A stretch of 64,000 nt of DNA from an uncultured delta proteobacterium (GTDB taxonomy: Bacteria > Myxococcota > Myxococcia > Myxococcales > Myxococcaceae), in the NCBI GenBank assembly GCA_963771175.1, contig CAVYSY010000032.1:637766-701765 (forward strand). The letters run 5' to 3'. This document shows positions 42,650 to 46,712 of this stretch, one piece after another. The position numbers and the translations under genes were made by a program. The stretch's first letter is position 1; each line of letters begins with the position of its first letter. Below the pieces are notes generated by a model that was not told where the DNA came from, searched no databases, and saw only the letters and a list, made by a program, of their open reading frames with translations.

Positions 42650-42666
42650 AGCAAGTCAGGTGCCAG
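42650..42666 (-). promoter_or_regulatory. Sigma54 (-24/-12) promoter of the propeller gene
   Basis: Minus strand CTGGCACCTGACTTGCT matches the consensus TGGCAC-N5-TTGC exactly. Confidence 0.8.
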
Positions 42667-42752
42667 CTTCTGTGGCCCAGCCGGGGAGCGCCCTCTCCCC
42701 TCGTGGGCCCTCTCTTCGTCGCTGTCGGGAGCGTCTTCGCGCCAGGCCCGCA

Positions 42753-42787
42753 CAAACCGTCGGGCGACAGGATGAAACCGTTCGGTT
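42753..42787. promoter_or_regulatory. Putative enhancer (UAS), copy A
   Basis: CAAACCGTCGGGCGA-N8-AACCGTTCGGTT; matches copy B at 46678. Confidence 0.65.
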
Positions 42788-44741
42788 AGTGCCGCACGCG
42801 TGCGGACCGAAGGGGCTCAAAAAAAAAAAAAAAAAAGCGGGAGAGCTGCGGCTTGAGGCCGAGGTTGCGGATGAGCCGGTGCAGCGAGTTGACGTGGATG
42901 CCGAGCAGGGCCGCCGCCGCGCGGTAGTCGCCCCGGGCCTTCTCCATGGCGTCGAGGATGCTCTTCTTCTTCGTGGAGGTGACCGTGGCCAGGAAGTCGC
43001 CAGGTGCGGAGCCACCGCCCTCGAGCACCTCGTCGGGCAGGTCCTCGGGTTGGATGAGCTCATCGGCGCCCAGCACCACGGCGCGCTCGATGACGTTGCC
43101 GAGCTGGCGCACGTTCCCGGGCCAATCGTAGGACTCGATGGCGCGGAGGGCGGCGGGCGAAAGGCTCACGGCGCGGTGGCGCAGCCGCTCGCCATGAAGC
43201 CGGGCGAAGTGGCGTGCCAGCAGGGGGATGTCCTCGCGCCGTTCACGCAGGGGCGGCAGGGTGAAGGAGATGACGTTGAGGCGATAGAAGAAGTCCTCGC
43301 GGAAGCGGCCTTCGCGGAGGGCCGCTTCGAGGTCCCTGTTGGTGGCGGTGATGAGGCGCACGTCGACCTGGAGGGGGCGGGTGCCGCCCACACGCTCGAA
43401 CTCGCGCTCCTGGAGCACGCGCAGGAGCCGGGCCTGGAGTGCCGGAGGGATTTCGCCCACCTCGTCGAGGAAGAGGGTGCCGCCGTGGGCCAGCTCGAGC
43501 TTGCCCTCCTTGCGAGCCACGGCGCCGGTGAACGCGCCCTTCTCGTGGCCGAACAGCTCGCTCTCCAGCAGCGTCTCCGAGAGCGTGGCGCAGTTGATGG
43601 CGACGAAGGGCGCGGCGGCGCGCGGGCTGGCCCTGTGGAGGGCGCGCGCGGCCACCTCCTTGCCCGTACCGCTCTCGCCGCGCAGCAACACCGTCGAGTC
43701 GACGGGCGCGGCACGGGAGATGAAGCGGAAGAGGCGCTGCATGGCGGCGCTCTCGCCCACCACGCCGTGCTCCAGGCCCGCCCCCTGCAAGCGCTGGTTC
43801 TCCCGCTCGAGACGGGCCAGGTGCTGGGCATTGGCCAGACCGTGGGCGGAGATGACGGCCGCCGCCGTGAGCAGCTCCAGATGGTGCTCGGTGAAAGCGT
43901 GGCCCGAGGAGGTGTCGAAGTAGAGCAGGCCCAACGGCCCCAGGCGTCCCGGCAGGGGCGCGCACAGCACCGAGCGCACGGCGGCCTCGTGCAGGCTCTC
44001 GGCCTCGCGCAACCCGCCGTCCACCGCCACGTCCGAGTACAGGCACCCCACCCCACCGTCCAGGACGCGGCTCACCAGCGTGGTGCTGACAGGAAAGGAC
44101 GTGCCGCTGGCGCCGCGCCGGTCGTGGGAGGCGGCGGCCACGGTCTCCCGGGTCCCCGGCTCGCACAGCAGGACGCTGCCGCGCTCCGCCGGAAGCACGG
44201 CCAGGAGCAGCTCGAGGACGCGCGCCGCCAGACGCTCCACCTGCTGGAGCTCGTGCACCGCGGTGCTCAATTCGAGCAGGGCCTGGAGGTCCGAGGCGAT
44301 GAGGCCGGGGCCCGGGCCCACCGCCTCGGCCAGTGCCGCCCGGAGCCGCCGCGGCTGGAGGTACAGCACGTCCTCGGGCCGTCGCTGCACGGTGCTCCAC
44401 GAGGCGGCGTCCGGAGGCGAGGCCACCGTCCCAGCGGCGAGGGCCGGCACGTCGTCGCACAGGAAGAGGAAGGAGCTGTCGCCCACCTGGAAGACATCGG
44501 TGTGCTCCAGCTGCCGCTCACGCGTGGGCACTCCATTGACGAAGGTGCCGTGGCGGCTGTCGAGGTCCCTCAGCAACCAGTGCCCGCCCGCGGTGCGGAG
44601 CTCGCAGTGGCGGCGCGACACCACCGGATCGGCGAGCCGCACCTGGCAGTCCGACTGGCGGCCGAGAACGAGGGGTTCGAGCCCGAGTTCCCAGGTGGAG
44701 CCTCGATGAGAGCCGCTCAGCGCGATGAGACGAGGGGTCAA
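42786..44741 (-). CDS. FHA-GAF-AAA+-HTH sigma54 enhancer-binding protein
   Basis: FHA ([17 protein letters not shown]), GAF (RSVLCAPL), [29 protein letters not shown]. The true stop may be at 42817-42819. Confidence 0.92.
42819..42836 (+). repeat. A18 homopolymer
   Basis: 18 consecutive A in a very GC-rich context, read as FFFFFF at the end of the activator ORF. Confidence 0.9.
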
Positions 44742-44838
44742 CCGTCACACTCCTTGACGACGGAGTGGACTATAGCGCGACGGTGACCTGGAGCCGCGTG
44801 TTCAGGAAGCCCCTGGCGTCACGACGGGGCCGGGCGGC

Positions 44839-46122
44839 TCAGGTGACGGCCTGCACGAGCACGGTGAAGGCGTCGCCAGGCGAGGCTCCTCCGCTGGGGC
44901 TGGCGATGTAGTAATTGTCCGCCCCGGGGAGCACGGGCAGCACCTGGCCGTTCTGCACCTGGTGGAGCACGGTGGGGTCCTTCCCGGAGACATCCTGCTT
45001 GACGTCGAAGCGGAGGCCCGTCGGGTTGTCCGAGCTCAGCAGGCTCCAGCGCAGGGACTGGGTGCCCGGCGGAGGGAAGAGGCGGAAGTTCTCGCTCGAG
45101 CGCGCCTTCTGTCCAGACAGGGGCTGGTTGGAGGAGCGCACCACCACCTGCCAGAAGCCCGGCGGGAGCTGCACCAGCGAGGTGTTCAACCAGGGCTGGA
45201 GCGACTCGGCCCCCATGTAGGGCGGCATGAACGTGTTGGCGTTGGCCTGGGGATTCCAATTGGCCGGCGCGAGGAAGACGGCGGTGCCTCGCTTCTCGCT
45301 GTAGGCGCTGGCGCCGAAGGTGGAGATGTTCCACAGGGTGGGCTGGTAGAGGTCGCTGTAGTCCGCGTTGTGGCGGGACATGGGCGCCTGCCACCCCTCG
45401 AGCTGGAGGAAGGCATTGGCGTTGGACGAGTTGCAGCTCACCTGGGAAACGGTGAGGCCCACCAGCCACGCGAGGTTGAAGGGCGTGGGGTCCGGCGGCG
45501 CGGTGTTCTTCGTCACCGAGGGGTAGTAGTAGCCGCAGACGTTGGTGAGACTCGTGTAGTGGGAGTTGCCGGGGTCATGCTTCTCCCCGCTCGCCAGCGG
45601 GCCGTCACGGAAGGCCTGGAAGAAGTCCTGCACCGCCGTACCGGGCGCCAGGTCGAACGGGTTGTAGACGACGACCATGTGGGCGCCATGGACGAACAAC
45701 TCCAGGAATTGCGCCACGGTGGCGTAGTTCCATTGCCCGCCTTGAAGGAAGGGGGACTGCGTGTAGCCGCTCAACTGGTAGCGGGGCGGCGCTCCGCTGC
45801 TCTGGCCCAGGTAGCCCAGCACCGGCACGTAGAGCGACAGCGCGTTCTGGCGGATGAAGTTGGCCAGGAAGGCGAAGGTCTGCTGGTCCTGCGGCTTGAG
45901 GTGGCTGAAGTCCGTGGCGTTGTACGGGTCTCCCTGCGACTGTTGCCACCCGGCGAGCCACACCGGCGGAATCTTCTGCACCTCCGAGGAGAACTCCGCC
46001 GTGAAGGCTCCCCGCTGGATGGCCTCCTGCAAGGGAGCCAGCGTGCGCACGTCGCTGTCATAGAGGCTGTTGATGAACTCGCTGATGTTGCTGTAGTCCG
46101 AGTTGATGGGGACGACGGGCAT
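44839..46122 (-). CDS. Hypothetical two-domain protein (putative enzymatic N-terminal domain plus about 100-aa beta domain)
   Basis: RBS AGGAG, ATG 46122, high GC3; the C-terminal domain resembles the upstream small protein. Confidence 0.75.
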   Translation of the reverse strand: MPVVPINSDYSNISEFINSLYDSDVRTLAPLQEAIQRGAFTAEFSSEVQKIPPVWLAGWQQSQGDPYNATDFSHLKPQDQQTFAFLANFIRQNALSLYVPVLGYLGQSSGAPPRYQLSGYTQSPFLQGGQWNYATVAQFLELFVHGAHMVVVYNPFDLAPGTAVQDFFQAFRDGPLASGEKHDPGNSHYTSLTNVCGYYYPSVTKNTAPPDPTPFNLAWLVGLTVSQVSCNSSNANAFLQLEGWQAPMSRHNADYSDLYQPTLWNISTFGASAYSEKRGTAVFLAPANWNPQANANTFMPPYMGAESLQPWLNTSLVQLPPGFWQVVVRSSNQPLSGQKARSSENFRLFPPPGTQSLRWSLLSSDNPTGLRFDVKQDVSGKDPTVLHQVQNGQVLPVLPGADNYYIASPSGGASPGDAFTVLVQAVT

Positions 46123-46196
46123 GCGCGGACTCCTGTCTTCAGGGAGAAGGGCGGGACGCCCCTCGCATGGAGGCGTCCCGCGGGTGCCTGTGTGGC

Positions 46197-46511
46197 TCAG
46201 ACGCTGGTCTGGAAGCTCACCGTGAAGGGCTGGTTGTCCGAGTTCTTCGGGTTGGCGATGTAGTAGGCCTTGCCGGTGTCCAGCTTCAGCGACGAGCCGT
46301 TCTTCAGCCCGCTGGCGATGACCGGGTCGCTCGCGCTGGACTTGTCCTGCATGAGGTCGAACGTCAGCCCGCTGGCGCCGCCGCTCACGCCGAGGGTGAA
46401 GAGCGTGCCATCGGACATGACGCGGAACTCGGCGTCCGCCCAGCTCGAGCGGTGCTTCTGCCCGGGGAGGATGGTGGCGGAGGAGGAGATGGAGGCAATC
46501 GCGGTGGACAT
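46197..46511 (-). CDS. Hypothetical 104-aa protein
   Basis: RBS AGGAG, ATG 46511 (MSTAIASISS..), visibly homologous to the neighbour's C-terminal domain. Confidence 0.75.
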   Translation of the reverse strand: MSTAIASISSSATILPGQKHRSSWADAEFRVMSDGTLFTLGVSGGASGLTFDLMQDKSSASDPVIASGLKNGSSLKLDTGKAYYIANPKNSDNQPFTVSFQTSV

Positions 46512-46586
46512 GGGAAATGCTCCTGTGTGTGCGGCGTGAGGTCCTGACGGCCCACCTGGTGGAACCGCTGGACAGGCCTCCCCAGG

Positions 46587-46603
46587 AGCAAGGGGCATGC
46601 CGA
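46587..46603 (-). promoter_or_regulatory. Putative sigma54 (-24/-12) promoter
   Basis: Minus strand TCGGCATGCCCCTTGCT = GG-N10-GC with TTGC. Confidence 0.7.
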
Positions 46604-46677
46604 ACAGGAAACACTTCGGGGAATGAGGCCGTCCCTCGGGGCGCTCACGAGACTTCTGGCCAGGGAGCCGCGGGGAG

Positions 46678-46712
46678 CAAACCGTCGAGCGAGTCCGACT
46701 AACCGATCGGTT
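46678..46712. promoter_or_regulatory. Putative enhancer (UAS), copy B
   Basis: CAAACCGTCGAGCGA-N8-AACCGATCGGTT. Confidence 0.65.

What the first reader, a model, noticed from the sequence alone, without database searches (positions are those of the whole stretch)
42650..46712. Two sigma54 promoters share an identically spaced bipartite upstream motif
Seen: copy A 42753-42787 CAAACCGTCGGGCGA-CAGGATGA-AACCGTTCGGTT and copy B 46678-46712 CAAACCGTCGAGCGA-GTCCGACT-AACCGATCGGTT. The 15-mers differ at one base, the 12-bp palindromes differ at one central base, and the 8-nt spacer keeps its length but not its sequence. The two AACCG cores are 21 bp apart (two helical turns). The motifs start 87 and 75 bp from their -24/-12 elements, a difference of about one turn. 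Known: sigma54 activators bind tandem UAS sites roughly 80-150 bp upstream of the start site. Inference: this is the binding site of the activator encoded between them.
Basis: partly seen in the sequence, partly recalled or inferred. Interest (0 to 1): 0.75.

Follow-up and report, generated by a model that had tools for sequence, protein, structure and literature searches.

The report
Shared enhancer upstream of two sigma54 promoters
Two sigma-54 promoters that flank a sigma-54 activator gene in a myxobacterial genome carry the same two-part upstream sequence, which is most likely that activator's docking site: an ordinary kind of bacterial switch, here driving unusual uncharacterised genes.

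Summary
Copies at 42753-42787 and 46678-46712 agree at 25 of 27 box positions and 0 of 8 spacer positions. Shuffles give no such pair (2 hits, 0.00 expected).

Everything lies on the minus strand. Each copy sits 87 or 75 bp upstream of a GG-N10-GC promoter, TGGCAC-N5-TTGCT at 42665..42650 and CGGCAT-N5-TTGCT at 46602..46587. Each promoter precedes an ORF with a ribosome-binding site.

Promoter B heads a 104-aa gene, a 427-aa gene and then the activator, an FHA-GAF-AAA+(GAFTGA)-HTH protein at 42786..44741. Promoter A starts right after the activator's stop codon and heads a six-bladed propeller, lectin-like gene.

The motif is one perfect 12-bp palindrome (AACCG-N2-CGGTT) plus a promoter-proximal 15-mer. 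The 15-mer holds a third AACCG half-site 21 bp away.

Best reading (about 0.68): a tandem upstream activating sequence for the local activator, with positive autoregulation. Binding is inferred, not shown.

My one genome-collection scan was mis-typed with N14 instead of N13, so conservation and the wider regulon stay untested.

Closest published analogue: M. xanthus PexR, which uses CACCG-n6-CGGTG repeats.

Verdict: a new member of a known kind, of modest interest.

The parts
46701..46712 (-). Copy B, promoter-distal perfect palindrome AACCGATCGGTT
   Evidence: One of only 2 exact AACCGNNCGGTT matches in the window. Its centre is 106 bp from the GG of promoter B.
46678..46692 (-). Copy B, promoter-proximal 15-mer box CAAACCGTCGAGCGA (plus-strand reading), holding a third AACCG half-site
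   Evidence: Matches copy A at 14 of 15 positions. It is one of 2 zero-mismatch hits. AACCG-N16-AACCG gives 2 hits against 0.12 expected.
46587..46602 (-). Sigma54-type promoter B, CGGCAT-N5-TTGCT (GG-N10-GC kept)
   Evidence: One mismatch to TGGC-N7-TTGCW. It lies 75 bp downstream of motif B and about 76 nt upstream of the ATG at 46511, which is preceded by AGGAG.
46197..46511 (-). First gene behind promoter B: a 104-aa protein of no known family
   Evidence: No Pfam or NCBIfam hit. It is homologous to the C-terminal domain of the 427-aa protein: 36% identity over 86 aa, E 5e-9.
44839..46122 (-). Second gene behind promoter B: a 427-aa protein of an uncharacterised family
   Evidence: No Pfam or NCBIfam hit. 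It has 101 homologues, none with a functional name and 4 fused to hemopexin PF00045. AlphaFold2 gives pLDDT 91.6. No PDB fold match reaches E 0.001 or better.
42786..44741 (-). Sigma54 activator (bEBP) with FHA, GAF, AAA+ with GAFTGA, and a Fis-type HTH; 651 aa; TTG start preceded by AAGGAG
   Evidence: Pfam scores: PF00158 238.9 bits, FHA 67.5 bits, GAF_3 34.2 bits, and HTH_8 20.0 bits, which is below its 22-bit cut-off. GAFTGA and the HTH helix are conserved in orthologues. Weak match to a 70-aa PDB chain named only 'Transcriptional regulator' (2m8g, E 0.015; I recall it as an NtrC-type DNA-binding domain) and to Fis. A 97-bp gap separates it from the 427-aa gene, with no terminator-like site in the gap.
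42776..42787 (-). Copy A, promoter-distal perfect palindrome AACCGTTCGGTT, overlapping the activator's stop codon
   Evidence: Exact match. Its centre is 118 bp from the GG of promoter A.
42753..42767 (-). Copy A, promoter-proximal 15-mer box CAAACCGTCGGGCGA
42650..42665 (-). Sigma54-type promoter A, TGGCAC-N5-TTGCT
   Evidence: Exact match to TGGC-N7-TTGCW, one of 3 in the window. It lies 87 bp downstream of motif A and about 62 nt upstream of the ATG at 42588.
41632..42588 (-). Gene behind promoter A: a 318-aa six-repeat beta-propeller, lectin-like
   Evidence: Internal repeats of about 147 nt. AlphaFold2 gives pLDDT 94.0. The best PDB matches are Photorhabdus PLL/PHL lectins, at E about 1e-13 and TM about 0.6.
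37988..41500 (-). Ser/Thr kinase with two kinase stretches and TPR repeats; candidate signal input to the FHA domain (inferred)
   Evidence: Pkinase 264.5 bits with 2 stretches, plus TPR_12. It is the next gene downstream on the same strand.

Best explanation
The bipartite motif is a tandem upstream activating sequence (enhancer) shared by two sigma54-dependent promoters. It is read by the FHA-GAF-AAA+-HTH activator encoded between them.

Proposed mechanism, in order:
1. A dimer of the Fis-type DNA-binding domain sits on the perfect palindrome AACCG-N2-CGGTT.
2. A second dimer is recruited cooperatively to the proximal box. That box keeps only one consensus half-site, two helical turns (21 bp) away on the same face.
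3. The tethered dimers assemble into the active AAA+ ring, loop to the sigma54 holoenzyme bound at -24/-12, and open the promoter by ATP hydrolysis through the GAFTGA loop.
4. Activity is gated by the N-terminal FHA domain and the GAF domain. The FHA domain binds phosphothreonine, and the adjacent tandem Ser/Thr kinase is the candidate source.
5. Promoter B also transcribes the activator gene as the third gene of its operon, giving positive feedback. Promoter A switches on the propeller-lectin-like gene.

Shown: the motif, its statistics, the promoter strings, the gene order and the domain content. Inferred: binding, cooperativity, operon structure, kinase input and feedback.
For: - The motif pair is far beyond chance: one search gives 2 hits against 0.00 expected. 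Selection acts on the boxes and not the spacer: 25 of 27 against 0 of 8 identical, with unrelated flanks.
- Both copies have the same orientation. They lie 87 and 75 bp upstream of GG-N10-GC promoters that face ORFs with ribosome-binding sites.
- The site centres lie 81.5-118 bp from the GG. That is about -106 to -143 from the predicted start, taken as 24.5 bp downstream of the GG.
- The two promoters differ by 12 bp in this distance, roughly one helical turn.
- The only regulator gene in the locus is a complete sigma54 activator with a DNA-binding HTH.
- Published precedent 1: in D. vulgaris, 10 of 13 one-component activator genes are co-localised with sigma54 promoters. Three of them sit inside such operons and one has the promoter downstream of the gene (PMC4641369, passages read).
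- Published precedent 2: the M. xanthus GAF-type activator PexR binds tandem CACCG-n6-CGGTG palindromes. It also binds functional pseudo-palindromes that keep only the 5' half (PMC12754779, section 29 read). That is the same ACCG/CGGT core and the same mix of a perfect site with half-kept sites.
- Published precedent 3: Nla28 uses tandem imperfect 8-bp half-sites (PMC9765219, abstract and passages).
- No RNA-level explanation was found: no Rfam hit at E up to 1, and fold z-scores of -0.55 and -0.70.
Against: - No binding or expression data exist.
- There are only two copies, so the essential positions are unknown.
- The proximal 15-mer is conserved well beyond its single half-site (TCGCYCGA on the transcribed strand). 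One protein reading one half-site type does not explain that.
- HTH_8 scores 20.0 bits, below Pfam's 22-bit cut-off.
- The 12-bp offset between the promoters is 1.5 bp more than one turn.
- The activator has 90-92% identical orthologues in Archangium lansingense and A. gephyra. The 427-aa protein has none there among all 101 hits: the best is 94% from an unnamed source and the next is 52%. The propeller's best hit is 58%, with 120 of 206 hits listed. The activator-target link is therefore not seen to be conserved.
- The target genes have lower G+C, 63-67% against 72-74%.
- Conservation of the motif in related genomes was not tested, because one search used the wrong spacing.
Confidence: 0.68

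Rival explanations
1. The motif is a real protein-binding site, but it is read by another regulator. Candidates are a different sigma54 activator of this activator-rich genome, including the NtrC-type response regulator at 13424..14809, or a non-activator repressor or co-regulator. The conserved non-palindromic part of the 15-mer could be that second protein's site.
For: - A second complete sigma54 activator lies in the same window.
- M. xanthus activators cross-regulate one another's promoters (PMC9765219, abstract and passages).
- The TCGCYCGA part of the 15-mer is conserved, yet it does not resemble the half-site.
- The activator is conserved in named Archangium species while the target genes are not found there.
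Against: - Both copies flank this activator gene, and one overlaps its stop codon.
- Co-localisation of one-component activators with their promoters is the common case: 10 of 13 in PMC4641369.
- No other DNA-binding regulator was seen between 37.5 and 48.4 kb among the eight ORFs scanned.
Confidence: 0.2
2. The similarity is inherited rather than selected. On this view one promoter region was duplicated together with its upstream sequence, and the boxes are merely what has not yet diverged.
For: - The two copies lie only 3.9 kb apart.
- The target genes look like later additions, with lower G+C and no orthologues in sister species.
Against: - Neutral decay would not leave 25 of 27 box positions identical next to 0 of 8 spacer positions and flanks at background level, 9 and 15 of 40.
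- The promoters themselves and the motif-to-promoter distances differ.
Confidence: 0.07
3. The element acts in RNA, as a terminator or processing hairpin. Each copy follows the stop of the upstream gene and is preceded by a G+C-rich palindrome (42791-42804 and 46713-46734).
For: - Copy A overlaps the activator's stop codon, and copy B lies 44 bp after the hydrolase gene's stop.
- In copy B the outer CAAACCG and CGGTTTG can pair.
Against: - The folds are no better than shuffles: z -0.55 and -0.70, with 49 and 42 of 200 shuffles folding at least as well.
- Copy A does not form the long hairpin.
- The scan called no terminator-like site there.
- There is no Rfam match.
- A 12-bp palindrome with a 2-nt centre makes a poor hairpin.
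Confidence: 0.03

Closest known systems
PexR upstream activating sequences at katB and ahpC of Myxococcus xanthus (PMC12754779; section 29 and other passages read)
   Same: - A myxobacterial activator with an N-terminal GAF domain.
- Tandem interrupted palindromes with an ACCG...CGGT core upstream of a validated sigma54 promoter.
- Functional pseudo-palindromes that keep only one half.
- The activator also binds near its own gene.
   Different: - The spacing within the dyad is n6 in PexR and n2 here.
- PexR uses three or more repeats; here there is one palindrome plus one half-site box.
- The word FHA does not occur in the PexR paper, so PexR is not described as having an FHA domain.
- PexR also represses a sigma-A promoter.
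Nla28 tandem half-sites, CT(C/G)CG(C/G)AG, in M. xanthus (PMC9765219; abstract and passages read)
   Same: - Tandem, imperfect short repeats upstream of sigma54 promoters.
- Autoregulation of the activator's own operon.
- Half-sites separated by up to about 25 bp.
   Different: - Nla28 is a response regulator of a two-component system.
- Its repeats are direct 8-mers of unrelated sequence.
- Its regulon is large.
NtrC enhancer at glnAp2 of enteric bacteria and the NifA TGT-N10-ACA site (recalled textbook knowledge, not from a call)
   Same: Two dyad sites an integral number of helical turns apart, about 100-140 bp upstream of a -24/-12 promoter, used to build the active oligomer.
   Different: - The sequence differs, and so does the site spacing: about three turns for NtrC, two here.
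- The regulatory domains differ: a receiver domain or GAF alone there, FHA plus GAF here.
One-component sigma54 activators co-localised with their promoters in Desulfovibrio vulgaris (PMC4641369; passages read)
   Same: The activator gene lies inside one sigma54 operon and next to another, with one shared motif upstream of both. DVUA0100, with two type III secretion operons, is an example.
   Different: The operons there are divergent and share one region. Here the two promoters are co-directional and each has its own copy.

Membership tests
Sigma54-dependent (-24/-12) promoter | GG and GC doublets separated by 10 bp | tested here: met
   A is TGGCACCTGACTTGCT and B is CGGCATGCCCCTTGCT. Both keep GG-N10-GC.
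Sigma54-dependent (-24/-12) promoter | Match to the extended consensus TGGCAC-N5-TTGCW | tested here: met
   A matches every specified position. B departs at 2 positions (C for T at position 1, T for C at position 6). Strings with up to 1 mismatch to TGGC-N7-TTGCW are common, 30 against 24.1 expected, so B is convincing only in context.
Sigma54-dependent (-24/-12) promoter | Faces an ORF at a plausible leader distance | tested here: met
   From the -12 element to the start codon is about 62 nt for A and 76 nt for B. AGGAAG and AGGAG precede the ATG codons.
Sigma54-dependent (-24/-12) promoter | Transcription requires sigma54 and an activator | not testable with these tools
   Needs start-site mapping (5'-RACE) and promoter mutations.
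Bacterial enhancer-binding protein (bEBP) | AAA+ sigma54-interaction domain with a GAFTGA loop | tested here: met
   PF00158 at 238.9 bits against a 20.2-bit cut-off. GAFTGA and GESGTGKE are invariant across 8 of 8 aligned sequences.
Bacterial enhancer-binding protein (bEBP) | C-terminal helix-turn-helix DNA-binding domain | tested here: inconclusive
   PF02954 scores 20.0 bits, below its 22-bit cut-off. The segment [22 protein letters not shown] is nearly unchanged in the 4 closest orthologues, and HVNSLHRL is kept down to the orthologues that are 66-67% identical. Weak PDB matches to a 70-aa chain named only 'Transcriptional regulator' (2m8g, E 0.015; I recall it as an NtrC-type DNA-binding domain) and to Fis.
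Bacterial enhancer-binding protein (bEBP) | Membership of a characterised subfamily (NifA, NorR, NtrC and so on) | tested here: not met
   Every NCBIfam equivalog hit is below its cut-off. The best is NifA, at 422 against 528.85 bits.
Upstream activating sequence (enhancer) of a bEBP | Two or more sites with dyad symmetry or repeated half-sites | tested here: met
   One perfect 12-bp palindrome, plus a box with one more AACCG in direct repeat. The second site is only half-palindromic.
Upstream activating sequence (enhancer) of a bEBP | Sites about 80-150 bp upstream of the promoter and an integral number of helical turns apart | tested here: met
   The half-sites are 21 bp apart. The site centres lie 81.5-118 bp from the GG.
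Upstream activating sequence (enhancer) of a bEBP | Bound by the activator's DNA-binding domain | not testable with these tools
   Needs a gel-shift (EMSA), a footprint or ChIP.
Upstream activating sequence (enhancer) of a bEBP | Conserved upstream of orthologous promoters, or present at further regulon members | not tested
Its 19 hits come from unrelated phyla and are chance matches.

The most novel reading that the evidence does not exclude
The activator and its enhancer may form a portable control module that has been copied onto newly acquired cargo. The activator is kept at 90-92% identity in other Archangium species. Both transcription units it appears to drive here are absent from those species' proteins and have lower G+C. 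These units are a lectin-like six-bladed propeller, and a 104-aa plus 427-aa pair with a confidently predicted fold that has no solved relative. On this reading the two near-identical enhancer copies record recent regulon rewiring. That rewiring would put a new secreted or predation-related protein set under Ser/Thr-kinase (FHA) and GAF control. The asymmetric site design, a full palindrome plus a half-site box, would set how the ring assembles.
Probability: 0.2. Interest if true: 0.55.

Novelty: new member of a known kind. Interest (0 to 1): 0.3.

Why it matters
If confirmed, this gives a defined DNA site for one of the many uncharacterised FHA-type sigma54 activators of myxobacteria. Very few binding sites are known for that class.

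It would also offer a compact locus for testing how Ser/Thr-kinase signalling reaches sigma54 promoters: a kinase, an FHA-GAF activator, two promoters and three cargo genes.

The cargo may be the more interesting part:
- The 427-aa protein belongs to a widespread family in which no member has a functional name. Its confidently predicted fold has no match among solved structures.
- It is paired here with a propeller lectin-like protein, and in some relatives it is fused to hemopexin repeats.

As a regulatory architecture it is ordinary.

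Tried and rejected
- **Genome-collection scan for the motif.** The true spacing is N13, since one search shows AACCG-N16-AACCG. The scan returned 19 loci, all metagenome-assembled genomes of unrelated phyla and none from Myxococcota. That is about what 18 specified bases give by chance in 596 Gb (about 17 by my arithmetic). They are useful only as a chance-level control. Whether the source genome is in that collection is also unknown. 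AACCGCCCGGGT at 16450, with a sigma54-like string 142 bp downstream at 16308..16293, lies within the long ORF 15395..16504. Both were rejected as chance.\n- **RNA element.** No Rfam hit at E up to 1, and the folds are not better than shuffles.\n- **Sigma70-type promoters and intrinsic terminators in 41400-48600.** There were 0 promoter-like sites. There were 3 terminator-like sites against 2.7 expected, none in the intergenic gaps. Operon structure therefore rests on spacing alone.\n- **ESM Atlas look-up of the 427-aa protein.** No usable hit.\n- **PDB fold search of its model.** No match at E 0.001 or better. The top rows are Cry and iota-toxin chains at TM about 0.1, which are not meaningful.\n- **Literature.** A search for AACCG, CGGTT and 'enhancer binding protein' returned 90 papers, and none of the 10 listed was relevant. 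A search for Archangium, sigma-54 and enhancer returned 0 papers. Jelsbak et al. 2005, on FHA-type activators, was seen only in a reference list, and the paper itself is not held.\n- **Complex prediction.** Not used, because no protein-protein binding claim rests on it.

Full report
**1. The observation**

- A: 42753-42787, CAAACCGTCGGGCGA / CAGGATGA / AACCGTTCGGTT.
- B: 46678-46712, CAAACCGTCGAGCGA / GTCCGACT / AACCGATCGGTT.

The boxes agree at 25 of 27 positions and the spacer at 0 of 8. The 40-nt flanks agree at 9 and 15 of 40, which is background.

Tests against chance:
- A search with copy A (spacer as N, up to 3 mismatches) finds only these two. The expectation is 0.00, and 0 of 100 shuffles reach 2.
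- The palindrome AACCGNNCGGTT occurs exactly only here. Allowing one mismatch gives 4 hits against 1.36 expected, with 9 of 100 shuffles reaching 4. That looser count alone means little.
- AACCG-N16-AACCG gives 2 hits against 0.12 expected.
- An alignment of the two whole promoter regions shows the motif block as the only long run of conserved columns.

**2. Anatomy**

The window has 68.8% G+C. All relevant genes are on the minus strand. In the direction of transcription the order is:
- A lipoprotein-like hydrolase, 46757..48436.
- Motif B, then promoter B, CGGCATGCCCCTTGCT at 46602..46587.
- A 104-aa gene, 46197..46511.
- A 427-aa gene, 44839..46122.
- The activator, 42786..44741. Its start is TTG, 8 nt after AAGGAG.
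- Motif A, whose palindrome begins at the activator's TAA stop codon.
- Promoter A, TGGCACCTGACTTGCT at 42665..42650.
- A 318-aa gene, 41632..42588.
- A 1170-aa Ser/Thr kinase with two kinase stretches and TPR repeats, 37988..41500.

Both promoters keep GG-N10-GC. A is one of 3 exact matches to TGGC-N7-TTGCW in the window, and B has one mismatch. Such strings are common, 30 against 24.1 expected with up to 1 mismatch, so B is persuasive only because of its place. By my arithmetic, a correctly oriented hit 60-100 bp downstream of a given point has a chance of about 0.01, and both copies have one.

From the motif edge to the promoter there are 87 and 75 intervening bp. The palindrome centres lie 118 and 106 bp from the GG, and the proximal half-site centres lie 93.5 and 81.5 bp from it. 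Counting the start site as 24.5 bp downstream of the GG, that is about -143 to -106 from the predicted start sites. The 12-bp difference between the promoters is close to one helical turn.

**3. The motif itself**

Read along the transcribed strand it is AACCG-WW-CGGTT, then N8, then TCGCYCGACGGTTTG. The parts are:
- A perfect 12-bp palindrome, distal to the promoter.
- A proximal box that contains one more CGGTT, 21 bp from the matching half of the palindrome.

The proximal box is not itself a second palindrome of that type. The remainder of the box (TCGCYCGA) is conserved without resembling the half-site, and I cannot explain that.

**4. The activator**

Pfam finds the following:

| Domain | Score (bits) |
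|---|---|
| FHA | 67.5 |
| GAF_3 | 34.2 |
| Sigma54_activat | 238.9 |
| AAA_lid_14 | 89.8 |
| HTH_8 | 20.0 (cut-off 22) |

GAFTGA and the Walker A motif are invariant in 8 of 8 aligned sequences. No NCBIfam equivalog is reached. The C-terminal 84 residues match a 70-aa PDB chain named only 'Transcriptional regulator' (2m8g, E 0.015), which I recall as an NtrC-type DNA-binding domain, and Fis, both only weakly.

Orthologues, with identity over the whole protein and over residues 1-320:

| Protein | Source | Whole protein | Residues 1-320 |
|---|---|---|---|
| P0102 | Archangium lansingense | 92% | 91% |
| P0104 | A. gephyra | 90% | 86% |
| P0105 | unnamed source | 81% | 74% |
| P0103 | Myxococcaceae MAG | not aligned | 81% |

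The window is therefore from an Archangium-like myxobacterium. The helix [15 protein letters not shown] is kept even in the orthologues that are 66-67% identical overall.

**5. Most likely mechanism**

I read this as a tandem enhancer for the local activator (confidence 0.68). One dimer would sit on the palindrome and a second would be recruited to the half-site box two turns away. The AAA+ ring would then assemble, loop to the sigma54 holoenzyme and open the promoter. Input would come through the FHA domain, with the neighbouring kinase as candidate, and through the GAF domain.

The gaps are short: 74 bp between the 104-aa and 427-aa genes, and 97 bp between the 427-aa gene and the activator. 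No terminator-like or sigma70-like site was called in them. Promoter B therefore probably also transcribes the activator, which would give positive feedback. All of this beyond the sequence features is inference.

Supporting precedents:
- One-component activators usually sit beside or inside their sigma54 operons: 10 of 13 in D. vulgaris, 3 inside operons and 1 with the promoter downstream of the gene (PMC4641369, passages).
- M. xanthus PexR, a GAF-type activator, binds tandem CACCG-n6-CGGTG palindromes. It also binds functional pseudo-palindromes that keep only the 5' half (PMC12754779, section 29). The shared ACCG/CGGT core and the full-plus-half site mix make this the closest published analogue.
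- Nla28 uses tandem imperfect 8-mers (PMC9765219, abstract and passages).

**6. What weakens the reading**

- There are no binding data.
- There are only two copies.
- The conserved part of the 15-mer is unexplained.
- The comparative test failed through my own slip. Its 19 hits come from unrelated phyla and are chance matches.
- At the protein level the activator is conserved in two named Archangium genomes, but its apparent targets are not.
  - For the 427-aa protein, all 101 hits are listed. The best is 94% from an unnamed source, the next is 52%, and none is from Archangium.
  - For the propeller, the best hit is 58%, with 120 of 206 hits listed.
- The targets also have lower G+C, 63-67% against 72-74%.

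The link between activator and targets is therefore specific to this genome, and co-inheritance cannot be used as support.

**7. Rivals**

- Another regulator uses the site (0.20). A second sigma54 activator lies at 13424..14809.
- A duplication remnant without function (0.07). The contrast between the boxes, the spacer and the flanks argues against this.
- An RNA element or terminator (0.03). There is no Rfam hit, and the fold z-scores are -0.55 and -0.70.

**8. The cargo**

- The 318-aa protein is a six-repeat beta-propeller. AlphaFold2 gives pLDDT 94.0. Its best PDB matches are the Photorhabdus PLL/PHL lectins, at E about 1e-13 and TM about 0.6. The next group of matches is sialidase propellers.
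- The 427-aa protein has a confident model, pLDDT 91.6, with no PDB match at E 0.001 or better. It has no Pfam, NCBIfam or Atlas lead. Of its 101 homologues, 4 are fused to hemopexin repeats.
- The 104-aa protein is a paralogue of the 427-aa protein's C-terminal beta-sandwich.

**9. Novelty**

No paper in the held library links Archangium with sigma54 enhancers, and none of the 10 listed papers from the motif search reports this motif. The architecture is a known kind. The site, the activator and the cargo are new members of it.

Scores: interest 0.3. The boldest reading not excluded is a portable activator-enhancer module recently copied onto acquired cargo of unknown fold, under kinase control, with probability about 0.2.

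Noticed in passing
window 42819-42836: A run of 18 A (T18 on the coding strand) sits inside the 3' end of the activator gene and encodes FFFFFF just after the HTH. It is an in-frame insertion, absent from 7 of 7 aligned orthologues. It is also the only homopolymer of 8 nt or more in this 69% G+C window. It lies 31 bp from motif A. It could be a real slippage-prone tract, an A-tract that affects DNA shape beside the enhancer, or an assembly artefact.
   Followed up: partly
window 42768-42775 and 46693-46700: The two 8-nt spacers share 0 of 8 bases, but 7 of 8 positions are base-for-base complements (CAGGATGA against GTCCGACT). The strong/weak base pattern is therefore kept. With only two copies this may be chance. 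It could also point to shape readout of the spacer.
   Followed up: partly
window 44740-44746: AACCGTC, the start of the 15-mer box, occurs 4 times on the plus strand of the window. Three of the four are in this locus: the two motif copies, and one that overlaps the activator's TTG start codon. It may be a weak autoregulatory half-site or chance.
   Followed up: no
window 44839-46122 and 46197-46511: The 427-aa protein belongs to a family of 101 detected homologues. They are found in Burkholderia, Massilia, Clostridium, Longimicrobium and many metagenomes, and none has a functional name. Four are fused to hemopexin repeats. Its model is confident, pLDDT 91.6, yet no solved structure matches at E 0.001 or better. 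The 104-aa gene upstream is a paralogue of its C-terminal domain.
   Followed up: partly
window 41632-42588: A six-repeat beta-propeller whose model best matches the Photorhabdus PLL/PHL fucose-binding lectins, at E about 1e-13. Those lectins are longer, at about 340 residues. I recall them as seven-bladed, which is from memory and not from a call.
   Followed up: partly
window 41400-46800: The genes behind both promoters have lower G+C (63-67%) than the activator and the kinase (72-74%). They also lack close orthologues in the named Archangium genomes that do carry the activator. This suggests later acquisition.
   Followed up: partly
window 42791-42804 and 46713-46734: Each motif copy is immediately preceded, on the transcribed strand, by a G+C-rich palindrome: CCGCACGCGTGCGG, and GTCC..GACGTACGTC..GGAC. 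These could be terminator stems of the upstream genes, or a third shared element. The folds are not better than shuffles.
   Followed up: partly
window 13424-16504: A second sigma54 activator, an NtrC-type response regulator, lies at 13424..14809 next to a histidine kinase gene. The kinase region shows two long overlapping minus-strand ORFs in different frames, 14764..15873 and 15395..16504. This could be a frameshift or two genes.
   Followed up: no
window 4934-5221: A clean hairpin plus T7 terminator at 4934-4969 is followed, in a lower-G+C intergenic stretch, by an exact sigma54-like string, TGGCGTCCGAATTGCT, at 5206-5221 on the plus strand. No copy of the motif lies nearby.
   Followed up: no
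window 49754-57060: A sulfur-oxidation (sox) style cluster on the minus strand. It holds SoxA/TsdA-type cytochrome, SoxY, SoxZ, a DsrE-like protein, a molybdopterin oxidoreductase and c-type cytochromes.
   Followed up: no
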